In this document: in pieces, positions 2,454 to 15,100 of the stretch
How the letters are laid out: each line of letters starts with the position of its first letter
Position numbering within the stretch: the first letter of the stretch is position 1
Sequence record: MF402939
Source of the DNA: Escherichia phage OSYSP
DNA: 64,000 nucleotides
Strand: one strand, 5' to 3'
The notes under the pieces: generated by a model
What the model saw: the letters and a program-made list of their open reading frames with translations, nothing else
The model's database searches: none
What the model was told of the DNA's origin: nothing
Translations under genes and position numbers: made by a program

Positions 2454-2820
2454 AATTGAAAACTCGCAGGGTTAGCGAAACCATCCTCAATTAGCATGTT
2501 CTAGAATACTAATCAAGTTATCTCCTATTGCACGCAGCTCAAGACGAGTACGAATTTTCAATTGTGGCGGCTCTCAGAAACTCTTCTATTCTAGCCTCAG
2601 AAGCTTACCCCCGAACGCATGTCGGGAAAGTCTTTCCAAGCGCATCAAATAGCACCGTTACACTTTGAGCCATTGATGTATCAAGGAATAGAAGGACTTG
2701 AACCTTCATGAGTTAGACCATTTAACTCAACCGCTTTTAAGGTATATTTCTAGGAGTGGATGTTCCTAGTAAACCTATTGGGCAGTCCCGTCTACCAATT
2801 CCGGCATATTCCAAGAATTT

Positions 2821-3853: not shown

Positions 3854-4092
3854 AAATTCTTTAGTTTACTAAGGCTATTAGCTCGGCGTAACTACAGCAC
3901 CTTCGCTTCGAGCGGAAGGAACCGCGTCATCTCGCAAACCCGATACACTATTCAGTTGCCGTTGAATCTAGTGGACTAATCTAGAACTTCTCCCGAATCG
4001 TAGGGATCGTGCTTTTTGGCAGCCAGTCCTAGGTCGAGCTAATACCTTAGTGAACTATGATGGGGATTTCTCCCCTATCAATTAATATAAAT

Positions 4093-5688: not shown

Positions 5689-5999
5689 ATGAATTTTTAA
5701 TAAATTTACTTATTGTGTAGGCCACCTGGAGGCTATGAACCCCACGGCTGACAAAGAAGTTTGCGAGACCTCTCTTAAATGCCAGAATAGACCCGCCTAT
5801 CTATCGGAACCTACTCAATAAGTAAACTTTCGTTTACTTACGCCCCGTTAGAGGGACTTTAGCGACTAGAACCGGCCGGAAACTTTATCGCCTTGTTTAT
5901 TAAGAAGTCCGTTCTCTAGGAAGCAGAAATCTAAATTTGGTGGAGTTTGGGAGACTACGTGTTACTTCCTCTGTCCGAAGTAGGACAGTGCTTAACCGT

Positions 6000-6191
6000 T
6001 TAGCTGAACCCCTTTAAATATTTATACGTTTTATCTAACAACTCTTGTTTAGAGATTATACCATCACGATATTCAGTAATAAAATTATCTATGTTGGAGT
6101 CCTTTGATACAACGTTATCAGATAGCTCTGTGAATTTATTTGCTAAAAGATCTAATTCTTTGTAATTCACAAAACCTCCAGAATATGTCAT
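6000..6191 (-). CDS. hypothetical protein (63 aa)
   Basis: ORF track; no clear SD. Confidence 0.35.
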   Translation of the reverse strand: MTYSGGFVNYKELDLLANKFTELSDNVVSKDSNIDNFITEYRDGIISKQELLDKTYKYLKGFS

Positions 6192-6431
6192 TCTAGTCAG
6201 GACTTGAACCTGCTATCACTTGTGCGGACTTACGAGAACCATTCTTTCACTCGAATCGAACGAGCTTCTGCCCTAGCCAAGCTGGTTTCCCCATCAACCA
6301 CGCTAGAATGTTTGATTGTTTTCAGTGCAAGAGTCCGAGTCTTGGACACGACCGCTTCGCAAATACATAGGCAGCTTATCATGAGTCGGCACTTCCGAAT
6401 TGCTAGCTCCGTGTTCTGCACTGAAATTTTG

Positions 6432-7104: not shown

Positions 7105-7177
7105 TGGTATCTGTGGCTGAATTCGATGTCAGCAATGATAGCTGGTTGGCTACCGGTTTACTTAACTCTACACAGAA
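7105..7177 (-). tRNA. tRNA-like element, non-canonical (possible TCA-containing anticodon loop)
   Basis: 3' CACAGAT-A-CCA pairs with 5' TTCTGTG; stem CAGC/GCTG flanks loop TATCATT; D-arm and T-loop are atypical. Confidence 0.3.
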
Positions 7178-8163: not shown

Positions 8164-8234
8164 TGGCAGGGGTAAAGGTATTCGAAACCTTTTCATGGGT
8201 TTTGGAGGCCCATTTGCAACCTATGCGTACCCCA
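8164..8234 (-). tRNA. tRNA-Trp (anticodon CCA), compact D-arm
   Basis: T-arm AAGGT-TTCGAAT-ACCTT, anticodon arm TGGGC-CTCCAAA-ACCCA, 3' TACCCCT-G-CCA; T1-T72 mismatch. Confidence 0.45.
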
Positions 8235-9873: not shown

Positions 9874-9951
9874 TGGTGGCTCCCCGAGGATTCGAACCTA
9901 CGTACCTTCCGGTTATGAGCCGGGTGCTCATACCATATGAGCTTGAGAACC
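9874..9951 (-). tRNA. tRNA, anticodon CAT, initiator-like anticodon arm
   Basis: Acceptor GGTTCTC/GGGAGCC, anticodon arm CCGG-CTCATAA-CCGG followed by GAAGG as in initiator tRNA; T-stem imperfect; CCA encoded. Confidence 0.45.
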
Positions 9952-12536: not shown

Positions 12537-12571
12537 CAGAAAAGCCCGCGCTCTCGGAGAAAACGCGGGCT
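12537..12571 (-). terminator. rho-independent terminator after the SPFH gene
   Basis: Hairpin GCCCGCG-loop-CGCGGGC followed by TTTT on minus strand; convergent with the previous terminator. Confidence 0.6.
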
Positions 12572-12595
12572 TAGTTCGAAGATTACGTGTAACTA

Positions 12596-13543
12596 TTACT
12601 TGTTACGCATATCCATGATCATTTGACCATCATAGCCAGTGCCAACTACAGTCTGAGGTACACCACCTTGATATTTCTGAGCACGAATCATCTCAACTTC
12701 CAGTTGTTTCCAACGAATCATCTCAGGAGTAATGGTACGTTGCAGTGCGGCGTTAGCTTCAGCTTCTTTCTTAGCTGCGTACAGTTTAGCATCTGCGTCA
12801 CGTTCATTAGCAATAGCTTGGTTATTGCGAGCTTCACGATCTGCTTCTGCTTGTTTAACTTTTTGCTGTGCTTCCTGTTCAACGCGGGCAAGTTCAGCTT
12901 TCGCAGCGTTAACTTGCTCTTCACGAACTTTGGTATTCTGTACCTGTTCCATGATTACCGGTGGCAAAGTAATATCTTGAAGAAACACCTGCTTAACTGT
13001 GTAACCATATGGGCGTGCATACTCTTCAACTTCCTGTTGAATTGCAGTTTGCAATTGAGCCTGAATTTTAGCATCAAACAAATCTTGTGCTTTAGGTACA
13101 GACTTACCAAACTCACAAATAGTAGATAGTAATTTTTCAGTTACATATTTGTCTAACGCTTGATCCTGAGTACCTGCATTAATACGGTTAATCGGTGCCT
13201 TAGAACCATCAAACTGCAACATAACAGTCAGATCAACAGTGGATTTAAACTTATCCTGACTAGGAACCTGAAGTTTATCTAATTTTACAGCAATATCTTT
13301 TGTACTAAAAGTATCGAAAGATGCAAACGGGTTTACAATATGGAAACCAGGTAATACTGGATTAGGGTCTACTTTACCCAGGAATGTTTGAGTTTTAACC
13401 GTACCATCAGAAACAATAGTATATGAATTAAAAGCTAGGATTAAACCTGCTAAACCAACTACAGCACCAATACCCCAACGTTTAATAGTGCGAATTACTT
13501 TTTGCTCAGAAGTCAGTTCTTTCATATTTTTAGTATTAAACAT
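12596..13543 (-). CDS. SPFH/band-7 (HflK/HflC-like) membrane protein
   Basis: 315 aa; N-terminal hydrophobic helix (IGAVVGLAGLILAF), then SPFH-like core and long Ala/Glu/Gln-rich coiled coil; AAGGA SD. Confidence 0.6.
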   Translation of the reverse strand: MFNTKNMKELTSEQKVIRTIKRWGIGAVVGLAGLILAFNSYTIVSDGTVKTQTFLGKVDPNPVLPGFHIVNPFASFDTFSTKDIAVKLDKLQVPSQDKFKSTVDLTVMLQFDGSKAPINRINAGTQDQALDKYVTEKLLSTICEFGKSVPKAQDLFDAKIQAQLQTAIQQEVEEYARPYGYTVKQVFLQDITLPPVIMEQVQNTKVREEQVNAAKAELARVEQEAQQKVKQAEADREARNNQAIANERDADAKLYAAKKEAEANAALQRTITPEMIRWKQLEVEMIRAQKYQGGVPQTVVGTGYDGQMIMDMRNK

Positions 13544-13580: not shown

Positions 13581-13652
13581 CCGAGGTGACAGGATTCGAA
13601 CCTGCATAAAGGAATTTAGAAGACTCCTGCCTCTCCCTTAGACTACACCCCG
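13581..13652 (-). tRNA. tRNA-Arg (anticodon TCT), CCA not encoded
   Basis: Acceptor CGGGGTG/CACCTCG, anticodon arm GGAGT-CTTCTAA-ATTCC, T-arm GCAGG-TTCGAAT-CCTGT. Confidence 0.55.
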
Positions 13653-14152
13653 TTTAAGTATTTTTAAGAACTCTCGTAAAAACTCTTAAAAATACAGACG
13701 ATACCGGGAGAGTCATAAGTCTCACTCATTAAGTATTTCAAGACAAAATACAGTAACGTCTATTATTTTCCAGTTTAAGTCAGGGTGACTTAGTGGTTAT
13801 GTCCTGCGGTATATTGAGGACTCGGTTAGGCTTGGGGTCATGACTTCCCGCCTTTTGCTGCTACTCAACAGGAGTTATCGCGAATTACCTGTGCTATTGT
13901 GCACCATTAGTGACATCTCTCATGTCAGCATTTCCCACTTTGTGGATAGCTTGAAAAACTACTCCGATATGGAGAAAGAACTTCACTATCCTAGAATACC
14001 TTCTAAAGTTCTTCTTTAGCCTGGACATAGTTAAATCGTAATAAAACTATTCAGCAGACTGGTTGGTTAGTCTGGAACCAACTACCGCGTGGTTTAGGCA
14101 GTGCGCAACTAACCTCGGAAGCTTTTACGTTAAAAGCATCAGTTATCCAGTT

Positions 14153-14230
14153 CTTACCGACCGTAGGATTCGAACCTACATCTTCCACCAGTTACGGCTT
14201 GATAATACCAATTATACTAGGACGGCAGTG
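14153..14230 (-). tRNA. tRNA-like element, non-canonical (no foldable anticodon stem)
   Basis: T-arm GTAGG-TTCGAAT-CCTAC, D-loop-like AATTGGTA, acceptor GCCGTCC/GGTCGGT with one mismatch; no anticodon arm can be formed. Confidence 0.3.
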
Positions 14231-14449
14231 TTACTACATAAGTGATTTCCACACCCCACTATTTATAAATTAGAGAAGAGTTTAGGGGAGAGGTTTCAGA
14301 CGCCTCATTTTACACGTTCTAGCCACTAACCGGGATTGCCGCCCCCTGTGTACTAGTTTTACAACTAACCCACCGACTCTATTCAATGCGCTCCGGTTGG
14401 GATTCTGCACTCAGCGTAATCGGCTCGCTGTTCCCTAATTTATGAATAT

Positions 14450-14478
14450 ATTATACAGAATTTATAAGCATTTAGCAA
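14450..14478 (-). promoter_or_regulatory. sigma70-type early promoter (TTGCTA-17-TATAAT)
   Basis: Consensus hexamers on minus strand. Confidence 0.6.
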
Positions 14479-14486
14479 ATAAATTT

Positions 14487-14930
14487 TTAATTAAATTCGC
14501 CAGCAATCTGAGCAGCAGTACCACCATCATAACGCCCGGGAAATTCTTCCTTAATCGCTTTCATCAGCATACCTTTTGTAATTCCAGGGTTTAGCTTAAC
14601 TAATTCTGCAAAGTATTTACGAATCTCAGTATCAGATAACTGAGGAGGCAGATACTCCTGCAACCACTTATTTAGAATGTATTCATACTGAGCGGACTGC
14701 AAGCTATAACTATCAAGATCTTGACCATGAAGTTTAGCTTTCATCTGGTTAATGCTTTTTAGTTGAGCTTTGAGATAAGACACAAATTGTTCAGAAGTGA
14801 TGAAATCTTTATCAATACGCTGAAGATCCCCGATTATGGTCTGATAGCTTTTAGCGACTTCTTTATCAGAACCATTAAACTTAGAATCCTGCAAAGCTCT
14901 ACGCAAAACATCTAAAATATTCTCTTCCAT
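14487..14930 (-). CDS. GatB/YqeY-domain-like protein (147 aa)
   Basis: ORF track; size and motifs (GITKGMLMKAIKEEFPGRYDGGTAAQIAGE) resemble YqeY-family proteins; start overlaps stop of upstream small ORF. Confidence 0.5.
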   Translation of the reverse strand: MEENILDVLRRALQDSKFNGSDKEVAKSYQTIIGDLQRIDKDFITSEQFVSYLKAQLKSINQMKAKLHGQDLDSYSLQSAQYEYILNKWLQEYLPPQLSDTEIRKYFAELVKLNPGITKGMLMKAIKEEFPGRYDGGTAAQIAGEFN

Positions 14931-15100
14931 TATTTCATTCCTAACGCTTGGTTAAAAGATTGTTCTGTCATAACTGCTGAGACTTTGGCGAAATCAAACT
15001 TTTTAGGGTTCGTAGTGATCTCAGCAACGTTAGAAGTTTTAACAGTTTTCGTAGTACGAAAACCGCGAGTGTTAACACCAATAATTACAACTGATTTCAT
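14930..15100 (-). CDS. small hypothetical protein (56 aa)
   Basis: Not in ORF track; ATG with GAGGA SD downstream of promoter 15132-15160; stop TAA overlaps next ATG. Confidence 0.4.
   Translation of the reverse strand: MKSVVIIGVNTRGFRTTKTVKTSNVAEITTNPKKFDFAKVSAVMTEQSFNQALGMK

What the first reader, a model, noticed from the sequence alone, without database searches (positions are those of the whole stretch)
13661..14486. About 800-bp region lacking convincing ORFs, containing a non-canonical tRNA-like element
Between tRNA-Arg and a minus-strand promoter (14450-14478) there is no ORF with a ribosome binding site. At 14153-14230 there are a good T-arm, a D-loop and an acceptor stem but no foldable anticodon arm. 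Such a long non-coding stretch in a compact phage genome suggests a structured RNA or an origin or packaging-related site.
Basis: seen in the sequence. Interest (0 to 1): 0.45.

Follow-up and report, generated by a model that had tools for sequence, protein, structure and literature searches.

The report
T5 RNAX: structured RNA with tRNA-like arm
The gene-free stretch is the T5-family "RNAX" gene, a roughly 790-base non-coding RNA whose conserved four-helix core carries a tRNA look-alike with no anticodon; it was annotated twenty years ago, but its structure and function have never been worked out.

Summary
Window 13653-14443 (minus strand) has no conserved ORF. A strong sigma-70 promoter lies at 14478-14450, and a tRNA-like element at 14226-14155 lacks an anticodon arm.

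The window is a Tequintavirus (T5-like phage). The stretch is the orthologue of rnaX, annotated "RNAX, stable RNA with unknown functions" in T5 and Salmonella phage 5. It is co-transcribed with tRNA-Arg(UCU) and an SPFH gene.

Comparison across Demerecviridae shows a covariation-supported four-way junction of about 175 nt (P1, a long P2 arm, H3, H4). Its joining strands are nearly invariant. The tRNA-like element sits at the tip of P2, beyond an invariant internal loop (AACACU/AAGA).

Its acceptor stem, D arm and T arm are kept by compensatory changes. The anticodon arm is replaced by lineage-specific hairpins. In three lineages a plain hairpin replaces the whole tRNA-like element. So the scaffold is the conserved unit and the tRNA mimic is a swappable module.

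A 5'-terminal helix and a conserved 17-bp 3' hairpin flank the RNA. No Rfam family matches.

An origin or packaging role has no support. Function is unknown. My best guess is a stable decoy or scaffold RNA that engages tRNA-recognising factors. It is moderately interesting as an untested, tractable RNA class in a model phage.

The parts
14450..14478 (-). Sigma-70 promoter (-35 TTGCTA 14478-14473, 17-nt spacer, -10 TATAAT 14455-14450). It corresponds to T5 'promoter P16-17'.
   Evidence: 10 of 12 matches. Annotated in T5 and phage 5. Conserved in all lineages.
13653..14443 (-). RNAX non-coding RNA. The 5' end is predicted at about 14443 (7 nt after the -10); the end equivalent to the phage 5 annotation is 14437. 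The 3' end at 13653 is set by the 5' end of tRNA-Arg.
   Evidence: 99.5% identical to the annotated rnaX of Salmonella phage 5 and 92-99% to T5 rnaX. No coding signature.
14432..14443 (-). P0 helix, 5' strand (AUAAAUUAGGGA). It sequesters the 5' end of the transcript.
   Evidence: Inverted repeat I1. In T5 the same two strands form a simple hairpin. Compensated variants occur in Pantoea AAS21 and Serratia Kamaji.
14277..14431 (-). Variable 5' domain inserted in the loop of P0; it includes the hairpin CAGCG...CGCUG at 14430-14412. T5 lacks it and Epseptimavirus has a different one.
14265..14276 (-). P0 helix, 3' strand (UCUCUAAUUUAU).
14088..14260 (-). Conserved four-way-junction core. P1 14260-14256 pairs with 14092-14088. 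J1/2 GGUGUGGAA 14255-14247. P2a 14246-14243 pairs with 14141-14138. P2b/c 14241-14233 pairs with 14151-14143, with an invariant central G.G mismatch. H3 14137-14121. J3/4 14120-14115. H4 14114-14097. J4/1 UAAA 14096-14093.
   Evidence: Covariation on the trimmed alignment of the junction helices (28 pairs): 89.7% paired against 32-42% for slid controls; 18 pairs changed on both sides against 10.4+-1.6 in shuffles, 0/500. An independent RNAalifold prediction agrees. Anchor-based listing.
14227..14232 (-). 5' strand of the internal loop, AACACU, ending in U(-1) just before G1 of the tRNA-like element. Invariant in the aligned lineages; the only variants seen are AAACAU in phiR201 and AACCCU in Proteus PM135.
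14155..14226 (-). tRNA-like element. Acceptor 14226-14220 pairs with 14162-14156 (G1.U72 and U5.U68 non-Watson-Crick). D arm 14217-14202 (U8, A14, G18G19, A21). A 3-bp hairpin with hexaloop GUAACU at 14198-14187 replaces the anticodon arm. T arm 14179-14163 (GGUUCGAAUCC). Discriminator A at 14155. No CCA is encoded.
   Evidence: Rfam 35.5 bits with the anticodon arm skipped. ARAGORN negative. Compensatory changes in the acceptor, T stem and replacement hairpin.
14152..14154 (-). 3' strand of the internal loop, AGA. Together with discriminator A14155 it forms the invariant AAGA.
14055..14082 (-). Two mutually exclusive hairpins just 3' of the core: GUUGGUU/AACCAAC or CAGACU/AGUCUG.
   Evidence: Read from the sequence; alifold picks the second. 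Little variation is available, so support is weak.
13973..14017 (-). Conserved block C hairpin (AAAGAAGAACUU...AAGUUCUUUCU). Shared with Klebsiella T5-like phages at 83% identity.
13801..13929 (-). Block D: four hairpins (13929-13910, 13904-13891, 13853-13828, 13821-13801). Several pairs are changed on both sides.
   Evidence: Alifold pair table (for example GC/CG and AU/GC at the first hairpin; CG/UA/AU at the last).
13658..13695 (-). E hairpin: a 17-bp A/U-rich stem with a UACG loop, 6 nt upstream of tRNA-Arg. It is the conserved 3' boundary of RNAX in all lineages carrying the extended form. It is a candidate 3'-end protector or RNase III-type processing site.
   Evidence: z = -3.83 on the minus strand; 17 bp there against 12 bp on the plus strand. 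Compensated changes in Eos and Klebsiella phages (U-A to C-G, A-U to G-C, U.G to C-G).
13581..13652 (-). tRNA-Arg(UCU), co-transcribed directly downstream. RNase P cleavage at its 5' end would create the RNAX 3' end.
12542..13543 (-). Rest of the transcription unit: SPFH/Band-7 gene (13543-12596) and an intrinsic terminator (12572-12542).
   Evidence: Pfam Band_7 at 69 bits. Terminator scan. No terminator-like site on the minus strand between the promoter and this point.
14487..14930 (-). YqeY-like gene directly upstream. This neighbour is kept in most lineages.
   Evidence: Profile matches B. subtilis YqeY (1NG6) over its full length, E=0.003. Pfam YqeY 25.4 bits, below the cutoff of 27. PHROG 1460. 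Synteny.

Best explanation
The region is the rnaX gene of a T5-like phage: a non-coding, highly structured RNA of about 790 nt.

Shown:
- It lies between a near-consensus sigma-70 promoter and tRNA-Arg(UCU), with no terminator until after the next gene. RNAX is therefore the 5' part of an RNAX - tRNA-Arg - SPFH primary transcript.
- It has no coding signature.
- Its centre is a four-way junction of about 175 nt (P1, P2a/b/c, H3, H4), supported by compensatory changes across at least nine T5-like lineages. The joining strands and one internal loop are nearly invariant.
- The tRNA-like element forms the tip of the long P2 arm. It keeps a canonical acceptor/T-arm stack and D/T-loop elbow. It has no anticodon loop, no encoded CCA and no free 3' end.
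- In three lineages the tRNA-like element is replaced by a plain hairpin while the scaffold is kept.

Inferred:
- RNase P cutting at tRNA-Arg releases RNAX.
- The 5'-terminal P0 helix and the 17-bp E hairpin at the 3' end protect both ends. This would explain why the T5 annotators call it a stable RNA.

Best guess for function (about 0.35): the junction holds out a rod of roughly 25 bp capped by a tRNA elbow, acting as a decoy or docking scaffold for factors that recognise the upper half of tRNA. Candidates are RNase P, T-loop modification enzymes, tRNA-targeting defence nucleases, and the phage's adjacent YqeY-like protein. The invariant unpaired nucleotides would form the specific fold or binding site.
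For: - Orthology and annotation.
- Promoter and transcription unit.
- Non-coding.
- tRNA-like element without an anticodon arm.
- Covariation of the P2 arm, tRNA-like stems and H3 on the 16-sequence alignment: 30 pairs, 88.4% paired against 36-43% for slid controls, 16 pairs changed on both sides, 0/500 shuffles.
- Covariation of the four junction helices on the trimmed 17-sequence alignment: 28 pairs, 89.7% paired, 18 pairs changed on both sides against 10.4+-1.6, covariation score 0.494 against 0.185.
- RNAalifold independently recovers P2, the tRNA-like stems and H3, and adds P2a.
- P1 covaries: GUGG/CCAC, UACGG/CCGUA, UAGG/CCUA, AUGGG/CCCAU.
- Hairpin-for-tRNA replacement in an Epseptimavirus lineage (L017, L034), Proteus phages (PM135 and Stubb, L047 and L069) and Providencia PSTCR5 (L068).
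- E hairpin compensation and strand asymmetry.
- P0 helix.
- Context: the tRNA region of T5-like phages acts as an anti-defence island (bioRxiv 10.1101/2023.03.15.532788). Large phage RNAs next to tRNA islands, some with tRNAs embedded, are known (GOLLD, ROOL; bioRxiv 10.1101/2024.12.08.627333).
Against: - 'Stable RNA' rests only on the wording of two GenBank records. I found no paper or expression data.
- MFE z-scores are not significant, so all structural evidence is comparative.
- The comparison rests on a few deep lineages plus many near-identical sequences. One change inherited by many sequences is therefore counted many times.
- Alignment A2 was trimmed with sequence anchors: the P2 insert and the H4 interior were removed. 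This could favour the model.
- The decoy or scaffold function is untested. Lineages that swap the tRNA-like arm for a plain hairpin argue that tRNA mimicry is not the essential function.
- YqeY adjacency may reflect nothing more than the conserved gene order of the family. It is missing from the fetched Klebsiella, Eos and Kamaji loci.
Confidence: 0.8

Rival explanations
1. RNAX is a cis-acting leader or riboswitch-like element. The four-way junction senses a ligand, tRNA or protein and controls read-through, processing or stability of the downstream tRNA-Arg and SPFH message.
For: It sits at the 5' end of a transcript with no terminator before the SPFH gene. Invariant junction nucleotides with covarying helices are typical of ligand-binding RNAs. 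Two mutually exclusive hairpins follow the core directly (14082-14055). In Providencia PSTCR5 a ribosome-binding site and ATG follow the core within about 20 nt.
Against: What lies downstream differs between lineages: tRNA-Arg, small CDSs, or a 510-nt CDS. There is no terminator or RBS-sequestering helix tied to the core. In the window about 430 nt of other conserved hairpins separate the core from tRNA-Arg. No riboswitch family matches. The GenBank annotators describe a stable RNA species.
Confidence: 0.12
2. The core is a processing cassette or ribozyme. The invariant loop AACACU|G / AAGA marks a cleavage site, cut by RNase P at U(-1)/G(+1) or by the RNA itself. This would split RNAX into pieces held together by P1 and P2.
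For: U(-1), G(+1) and the discriminator-like A are kept in every variant, including the hairpin replacements. The acceptor/T-arm stack is the RNase P recognition unit (textbook knowledge). Junction nucleotides are invariant.
Against: The 5' leader and 3' trailer are base-paired (P2). No CCA is encoded. The T5 and phage 5 records annotate one RNA of 719-785 nt rather than fragments. No known self-cleaving ribozyme family matches at E<=1.
Confidence: 0.1
3. It is a decaying tRNA pseudogene embedded in neutral intergenic DNA left over from recombination and homing-endonuclease traffic in the tRNA region.
For: The tRNA region of T5-like phages is mosaic, with inserted CDSs. The modules of RNAX are shuffled between lineages (L058, L064). 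Several pipelines label the element tRNA-OTHER or pseudo.
Against: Compensatory double changes occur in 16-18 helix positions across subfamilies, including in the flanks of the 'pseudogene'. The unpaired motifs are invariant. A near-consensus promoter and the conserved terminal helices are kept in the lineages that carry the extended form.
Confidence: 0.03
4. It is a DNA-level element: a replication origin, packaging site or nick site.
For: The stretch is long and free of genes. It has an A/T-rich inverted repeat at 13658-13695.
Against: There are no iterons or tandem repeats. Helices contain G.U pairs that exist only on the minus-strand RNA. T5 annotates its nick site elsewhere. The GC skew shows no inflection here.
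Confidence: 0.02
5. It hides one or more small protein genes, as several GenBank annotations imply.
For: Automatic annotations-60 aa CDSs inside the region in Stokescottia, TrudiGerster, DevonBitter and AAS21.
Against: There is no third-position bias. Frameshifting indels and in-frame stops appear in homologues. The called ORFs differ in strand and position between records.
Confidence: 0.03

Closest known systems
rnaX ('RNAX, stable RNA with unknown functions') of phage T5 (NC_005859, 40848-41566) and Salmonella phage 5 (AJ604531, 12898-13682)
   Same: It is orthologous. It occupies the same slot between promoter P16-17 (just after the yqeY-like gene) and tRNA-Arg(UCU). It is 99.5% identical to phage 5 rnaX and 92-99% to T5 rnaX over the shared parts.
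   Different: The window, like phage 5, carries a domain of about 155 nt (14431-14277) inside the P0 hairpin loop that T5 lacks. The annotation gives only a name and coordinates, with no structure, family or function.
GOLLD (RF01998) and ROOL (RF03087), large ornate phage or prophage RNAs
   Same: They are large (over 500 nt), non-coding and phage-encoded, and lie beside tRNA islands. GOLLD sometimes has tRNAs embedded in its linker. Their function is unknown (bioRxiv 10.1101/2024.12.08.627333; PMC5737381).
   Different: Neither covariance model matches, even at E<=1. The secondary structures differ. Here the embedded element is a tRNA mimic without an anticodon, locked into a helix, not a functional tRNA. 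Oligomerisation is untested.
Canonical tRNA or tRNA pseudogene (RF00005)
   Same: 7-bp acceptor stem, D arm with U8/A14/G18G19/A21, T arm GGUUCGAAUCC. It scores above the Rfam gathering score.
   Different: There is no 5-bp anticodon stem or 7-nt loop in any lineage. The 3' strand continues into helix P2 and no CCA is encoded. Flanks are conserved and covary. In three lineages a plain hairpin takes its place.
Other tRNA mimics lacking an anticodon: the tmRNA tRNA-like domain, bacterial Y RNA (YrlA), mascRNA from MALAT1, and plant-virus 3' tRNA-like structures
   Same: An acceptor/T-arm 'upper half' of tRNA is presented by a larger RNA and recognised by tRNA enzymes (PMC4201824 for YrlA; otherwise my own knowledge).
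   Different: ARAGORN finds no tmRNA. No Rfam match to tmRNA or any other family in the library at E<=1. The topology differs: here the mimic is contiguous and internal, and its acceptor end is extended by a helix rather than free or aminoacylatable.
Small 'stable RNAs' in phage tRNA clusters: T5 RNA1, RNA2 and RNA3 ('tRNA-like stable RNA'), and T4 species 1 and 2 RNAs
   Same: They are co-transcribed with phage tRNAs, partly tRNA-like and of unknown function. Homologues of the T5 set are present in this window.
   Different: Those are 70-170 nt. No sequence similarity to the RNAX core was detected by nhmmer.

Membership tests
T5 rnaX (RNAX) family | Sequence homology to an annotated rnaX | tested here: met
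   99.5% over 834 nt to AJ604531 rnaX. 91.7% and 98.6% to the two shared segments of T5 rnaX.
T5 rnaX (RNAX) family | Position between promoter P16-17 (after the yqeY-like gene) and tRNA-Arg(UCU), on the same strand | tested here: met
T5 rnaX (RNAX) family | Non-coding | tested here: met
   no codon-position bias, with frameshifts and stops in homologues; the control genes behave as coding.
T5 rnaX (RNAX) family | Accumulates as a stable RNA in infected cells | not testable with these tools
   Only the annotation text. No paper was found.
Canonical tRNA (RF00005) | Acceptor stem, D arm and T arm with the conserved tertiary nucleotides | tested here: met
   35.5 bits against a gathering score of 29. 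Compensatory changes in the acceptor and T stems.
Canonical tRNA (RF00005) | Anticodon arm with a 5-bp stem and a 7-nt loop carrying an anticodon | tested here: not met
   The model skips 18 nt and ARAGORN makes no call. Across lineages the arm is a 3-bp stem with hexaloop, a GNRA hairpin, a pentaloop hairpin or a long arm.
Canonical tRNA (RF00005) | A free 3' end that can be processed and carry CCA | tested here: inconclusive
   No CCA is encoded, as is also true of the genuine tRNA-Arg here. The 3' strand continues as AAGA into helix P2, which covaries. Processing cannot be tested.
GOLLD / ROOL large ornate RNAs | Match to the family covariance model | tested here: not met
   No hit at E<=1 in the region or in three other lineages, and none at the gathering score in the whole window.
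GOLLD / ROOL large ornate RNAs | Large phage-encoded non-coding RNA beside a tRNA island | tested here: met
   About 790 nt, at the upstream edge of a cluster of 23-25 tRNA genes.
GOLLD / ROOL large ornate RNAs | RNA-only homo-oligomeric cage | not testable with these tools
   Needs cryo-EM or native gels. Self-complementary H3 loop sequences were examined and are explained by extension of the stem.
tmRNA | tRNA-like domain formed by the 5' and 3' ends, plus a tag reading frame | tested here: not met
   ARAGORN finds no tmRNA. No Rfam tmRNA hit in the region. The mimic is contiguous and internal.
Known riboswitches and self-cleaving ribozymes (Rfam 15) | Match to any family covariance model | tested here: not met
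   The only hit in the RNAX stretch itself is Hrs13 at 19 bits against a cutoff of 52.
Replication origin or packaging site | Iterons or direct repeats, A/T-rich unwinding element, skew inflection | tested here: not met
   No repeat families apart from the similarity between the two T arms. No skew inflection.

The most novel reading that the evidence does not exclude
The RNAX core is a new class of functional RNA specific to T5-like phages. It would be a four-way junction with invariant unpaired nucleotides that acts on its own, by catalysis, ligand binding or RNA-only assembly as in GOLLD and ROOL. It would use the tip of its long arm as a modular display site for a tRNA mimic, for example to trap or misdirect tRNA-recognising host enzymes or defence nucleases.
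Probability: 0.2. Interest if true: 0.85.

Novelty: new member of a known kind. Interest (0 to 1): 0.55.

Why it matters
T5 is a classical and genetically tractable model phage. Its tRNA region is now known to hold anti-defence functions, yet rnaX has remained a bare label since about 2004.

The analysis shows that the label hides a covariation-supported, family-wide RNA fold with invariant junction nucleotides and a swappable tRNA-mimic arm. That makes the question of what large phage RNAs next to tRNA islands do directly testable, by deletion, arm swaps, pull-downs and cryo-EM. It also gives a concrete seed alignment for a new RNA family.

It further flags short 'hypothetical protein' and 'tRNA-OTHER/Sec/Ser/Pro' calls at this locus in many GenBank records (seen in about a dozen of those fetched) as probable artefacts.

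Tried and rejected
- Thermodynamics. MFE z-scores for the whole RNA (-0.68), the core (-0.22) and the tRNA-like element (-0.67) are not significant. Only the E hairpin stands out (-3.83).
- Pseudoknot between J1/2 (GGUGU) and the loop ACACU. Both are near-invariant, and the few variants (PM135 AACCCU, phiR201 AAACAU, 26175I GGUGC) are not compensated. Not supported.
- An alternative local pairing of the P1 5' strand with CGUA/UGUA clashes with the much better supported P2. Rejected.
- Palindromic H3 loops as kissing-dimer signals. They are explained by extension of the stem (for example 7 bp plus a triloop in the window) and are absent from several lineages. Inconclusive, dropped.
- Resemblance to hammerhead (CUGAUG/GAAA), to hairpin-ribozyme loop A (AGAA/AGUC) or to a kink-turn. 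The order of elements or the required G.A pairs do not fit, and no Rfam hit supports them.
- Wider homologue searches. A metagenome pattern scan gave only T5-like phages plus chance hits. Relaxed viral scans added only Proteus and Providencia phages. The Vibrio T5-like phage Chloris has no scaffold in the 6 kb around its tRNA-Arg. More distant YqeY-like genes in other viral contigs are followed by CDSs, not by this RNA.
- Literature. I found no paper on RNAX in the searchable library. Rad, the T5 anti-retron factor, is a TOPRIM protein and not this RNA.
- Iterons and origin signals: none.
- A 15-nt complementarity between RNAX 14293-14279 and the D arm of tRNA-Arg is not conserved, so it is treated as chance.
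Full report
**What the window is.** The 1.1 kb around the finding is 98-100% identical to many Tequintavirus genomes; the best match is Salmonella phage VSe12. The window carries the T5-type tRNA cluster on the minus strand: 23 genes by ARAGORN, plus a tRNA-Ile2 homologue seen by Rfam.

The finding lies between tRNA-Arg(UCU) (13581-13652, minus strand) and a 147-aa gene (14487-14930, minus strand). That gene is a full-length YqeY-like protein. Its profile matches B. subtilis YqeY (1NG6) at E=0.003, Pfam YqeY scores 25.4 bits (just under the cutoff of 27), and it falls in PHROG 1460.

**Checking the observation.**
- No ORF longer than 60 aa overlaps the region. Across diverged homologues the candidate ORFs show no third-codon-position excess (34:75:63, 43:26:32, 97:113:58) and carry 1-nt indels and in-frame stops. 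The two flanking genes give 73:41:215 and 151:44:590.
- The Rfam tRNA model matches 14155-14226(-) at 35.5 bits (gathering score 29). It aligns only the acceptor, D and T arms and skips the 18 nt where the anticodon arm should be. ARAGORN does not call it.
- TTGCTA-17-TATAAT sits at 14478-14450(-).

**It is an annotated but uncharacterised gene.** In T5 RefSeq the homologous slot is misc_RNA rnaX, 'RNAX, stable RNA with unknown functions' (719 nt). It is preceded by 'promoter P16-17' and followed directly by tRNA-Arg. The Salmonella phage 5 record (AJ604531) annotates the same gene at 785 nt and is 99.5% identical to the window, corresponding to window 13653-14437.

No minus-strand terminator-like site occurs until 12572-12542, after the SPFH/Band-7 gene. 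The primary transcript is therefore RNAX - tRNA-Arg - SPFH mRNA. I found no paper on RNAX in the searchable library, and no Rfam 15 family matches it at E<=1.

**Homologues.** blastn finds the region in 531 phage records, with identity classes from 99% down to 60-80%. I fetched representatives of:
- Tequintavirus (window, T5);
- several Epseptimavirus lineages and phiR201;
- Klebsiella Sugarlandvirus;
- phage Eos;
- Pectobacterium DU_PP_V (Mccorquodalevirinae);
- Serratia Kamaji;
- Pantoea AAS21;
- Proteus PM135 and Stubb (Novosibvirus);
- Providencia PSTCR5 and PR1.

The RNA is mosaic. The promoter with the first nucleotides of the transcript, a central block of about 180 nt and a 3' hairpin are shared by nearly all lineages. 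The other blocks come and go. Total length runs from about 0.2 kb (Proteus phages) through 0.72 kb (T5) and 0.79 kb (window) to about 1.6 kb (phiR201).

**The conserved core.** Sequences were extracted with invariant anchors rather than from an alignment. They show the following elements.
- A 9-bp helix (P2b/c) joins the 5' and 3' flanks of the tRNA-like element. In the window it is UUAUGUAGU/ACUGGAUAA. It has an invariant central G.G mismatch and many compensated variants (..AAC/GUU.., ..GAU/AUC.., ..AGC/GCU.., CAC../..GUG, CGCU../..AGCG).
- RNAalifold independently extends it by P2a (AUCA/UGAU, covarying AU/CG and CG/GC).
- P1 closes the domain. It covaries as GUGG/CCAC, UACGG/CCGUA (DU_PP_V), UAGG/CCUA (Kamaji) and AUGGG/CCCAU (Proteus).
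- H3 is a 5-7-bp hairpin with several stem sequences (GCUUUU, GCUUAU, GGUUC, GCGUA, GAUUA).
- H4 is an 18-nt hairpin in the window. In Stitch, Klebsiella and DU_PP_V phages it is a 60-70-nt domain. Its closing pairs covary: GGCAG/CUGCC, GCUG/CAGC, GCGG/CCGC, GCUA/UAGC, GUUG/CAAC.

**Formal counts.**
- On the 16-sequence alignment A1: 30 pairs, 88.4% paired against 36-43% when partners are slid, 16 pairs changed on both sides (shuffles 9.2+-1.6; 0/500).
- On the 17-sequence trimmed alignment A2 of the four junction helices: 28 pairs, 89.7% paired against 32-42%, 18 pairs changed on both sides (10.4+-1.6; 0/500), covariation score 0.494 against 0.185.

Three caveats apply. A2 was trimmed with sequence anchors. 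The sequences fall into a few deep lineages, so inherited changes are counted more than once. The shuffle control ignores phylogeny.

The unpaired strands are almost invariant: J1/2 GGUGYSGAA, J3/4 ..UCGCW, J4/1 YWAAA, and the internal loop AACACU / AAGA.

**The tRNA-like arm.** It sits at the tip of P2, beyond that internal loop.
- The acceptor stem has a non-Watson-Crick first pair (G1.U72 or G1.A72), usually a U5.U68 mismatch (A-U in T5), and compensated changes at 3-70, 4-69 and 7-66.
- The D arm carries U8, A14, G18G19 and A21.
- The T arm (GGUUCRAnUCC) has compensated stem changes.

The place of the anticodon arm is taken by a different small hairpin in each lineage:
- a 3-bp stem with hexaloop GUAACU, which itself covaries (GCC/GGU, GGC/GCC, ACC/GGU);
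- a 4-bp stem with UUCACC;
- CCC-GAGA-GGG;
- a 6-bp stem with a pentaloop;
- a long arm in DevonBitter-type phages.

None has a 7-nt anticodon loop. No CCA is encoded, and the 3' strand runs straight into P2. It is therefore not a decoding tRNA.

An Epseptimavirus lineage (L017, L034), Proteus phages (PM135 and Stubb) and Providencia PSTCR5 keep the whole scaffold. This includes U(-1), G(+1), the mismatched first pair and AAGA. They replace the tRNA-like body with a plain hairpin of 36-46 nt. The scaffold is the conserved unit. The tRNA mimic is a swappable module.

**The ends.** The first 12 nt of the transcript (14443-14432) pair with 14276-14265 to form P0. In T5 the same strands form a simple hairpin. 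The window carries a domain of about 155 nt in its loop. Compensated P0 variants occur in AAS21 and Kamaji.

At the 3' end, 6 nt before tRNA-Arg, lies a 17-bp A/U-rich hairpin with a UACG loop (13695-13658). It is about 90% conserved even in Klebsiella and Pectobacterium phages. It shows compensated changes (U-A to C-G, A-U to G-C, U.G to C-G). It forms 17 bp on the minus-strand RNA but only 12 bp on the plus strand. It is always the 3' boundary of the extended RNAX, whatever follows it, whether tRNA-Arg or an RBS and CDS.

Between the core and this hairpin, several further hairpins show some compensated pairs. Most of the variation there comes from close relatives.

**How it most likely works.**
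Shown:
- a strong promoter;
- a non-coding transcript;
- a conserved junction fold;
- a tRNA upper-half mimic fixed on a long helical arm;
- structured 5' and 3' ends;
- co-transcription with tRNA-Arg.

Inferred:
- RNase P cleavage at tRNA-Arg frees RNAX;
- P0 and the E hairpin shield its ends, which fits the 'stable RNA' label;
- the junction holds out a rod of about 25 bp (P2, acceptor and T stem) ending in a canonical tRNA elbow.

My preferred function, at roughly one chance in three, is a decoy or docking scaffold for factors that read the acceptor/T-arm/elbow of tRNA. Candidates are RNase P, TruB and TrmA, the CCA-adding enzyme, tRNA-directed defence nucleases, and the adjacent YqeY-like protein. 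The GatB tail domain related to YqeY binds the tRNA D-loop (my own knowledge, not tested here).

The yqeY-like gene sits directly upstream in Tequintavirus, Epseptimavirus, phiR201, Hongcheonvirus, Novosibvirus and AAS21, down to 30% protein identity. The same is true in hairpin-variant lineages. It is not seen in the fetched Klebsiella, Eos and Kamaji loci. More distant YqeY-like genes elsewhere lack the RNA. The link may therefore be no more than conserved gene order.

Context fits but proves nothing. The T5 tRNA region behaves as an anti-defence island (bioRxiv 10.1101/2023.03.15.532788). GOLLD and ROOL, which are also large phage RNAs next to tRNA islands and in GOLLD's case sometimes contain tRNAs, form RNA-only cages of unknown function (bioRxiv 10.1101/2024.12.08.627333).

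**Rivals.**
- A cis-regulatory leader (0.12) is suggested by the position and the invariant junction. It is weakened by the variable downstream genes and the lack of an expression platform tied to the core.
- A processing cassette or ribozyme (0.10) is suggested by the conserved U(-1)/G(+1) loop. It is weakened by the paired flanks and by the single-RNA annotation.
- Pseudogene plus junk, a DNA element, or hidden small genes (0.02-0.03 each) are contradicted by covariation, strand-specific G.U pairs, the absence of repeats and the coding test.

**Comparison with known families, and novelty.** By homology and position this is a member of the rnaX family. The one defining feature I could not test is accumulation as a stable RNA.

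It is not a tRNA: the anticodon arm was tested and is absent. It is not tmRNA, GOLLD, ROOL or any Rfam riboswitch or ribozyme: the covariance models were tested and do not match. It resembles GOLLD and ROOL in context and size, and resembles tmRNA, YrlA, mascRNA and viral tRNA-like structures in presenting a tRNA upper half.

The gene is therefore known as a label. The fold, its family-wide distribution and the modular tRNA arm are not described in anything I could search. I file it as a member of a known but uncharacterised kind, with a roughly 0.2 chance that the core is a new class of functional RNA.

**Verdict.** The region is explained by rnaX. Interest is moderate (0.55), as a well-supported and experimentally tractable RNA of unknown function in a model phage.

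Noticed in passing
window 2455-2560, 2565-2671, 2672-2815, 3873-4044, 5714-5814, 6186-6310, 7105-7177 (all minus strand): Homologues (94-100% identical) of all the other T5 'stable RNA' genes (RNAIII, RNAI, RNA1, RNA2H, RNAIV, RNA2, RNA3) are present in the tRNA cluster. No non-tRNA Rfam family matches them. The RNA1 region gives a sub-threshold tRNA hit (2683-2751, 23.9 bits).
   Followed up: partly
window 9874-9951 and 8164-8234 (minus strand): The tRNA-Ile2(CAU) homologue is found by Rfam (40.3 bits) but not by ARAGORN. The T5 tRNA-Trp homologue (98.6% identical) is found by neither at default thresholds. The tRNA count from a single tool is therefore too low.
   Followed up: partly
window 14279-14293 vs 13630-13644: A 15-nt stretch of the RNAX 5' domain is 13/15 complementary to the D-arm region of the co-transcribed tRNA-Arg. 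It lies mostly in the segment T5 lacks and is not conserved in Epseptimavirus, so it is probably chance.
   Followed up: partly
window 14055-14082 (minus strand): Two mutually exclusive hairpins (GUUGGUU/AACCAAC and CAGACU/AGUCUG) lie directly after the 3' strand of P1. This could be a structural switch. Only close relatives share it, so there is no covariation test.
   Followed up: no
L005 (Stitch), L007/L011 (Klebsiella phages) and L013 (DU_PP_V): H4 domain of the RNAX core: In lineages with the long H4 domain, the strands above the closing stem read GAGUAC ... CGAAAY. This resembles a sarcin-ricin/loop-E (AGUA/GAA) motif. The resemblance is recalled from memory and was not tested.
   Followed up: no
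L010 (vaffelhjerte) 2044-2526; L004 and L006 677-1186: Protein-coding genes are inserted at RNAX module boundaries. A 483-nt CDS replaces the P0/5' domain between the promoter and the core. A 510-nt CDS sits between the E hairpin and tRNA-Arg. This points to modular recombination at these junctions.
   Followed up: partly
GenBank records under: The tRNA-like element is variously annotated tRNA-OTHER, tRNA-Sec, tRNA-Ser(ACT) or tRNA-Pro. Short 'hypothetical protein' CDSs are called inside RNAX on either strand. The yqeY-like gene is often named 'recombination-related exonuclease' or 'tRNA amidotransferase'. These look like annotation artefacts.
   Followed up: partly
L058 and L064 (metagenome contigs): Chimeric RNAX cores occur. 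One has T5-type flanks with the Klebsiella-type long-arm tRNA-like element. Another has a 26175I-type tRNA-like element with T5-type H3 and H4. So there is recombination within the element.
   Followed up: no
window 14930-15100 (minus strand): The small gene upstream of the yqeY-like gene matches DUF7616 over its full length (111 bits). Its function is unknown.
   Followed up: no
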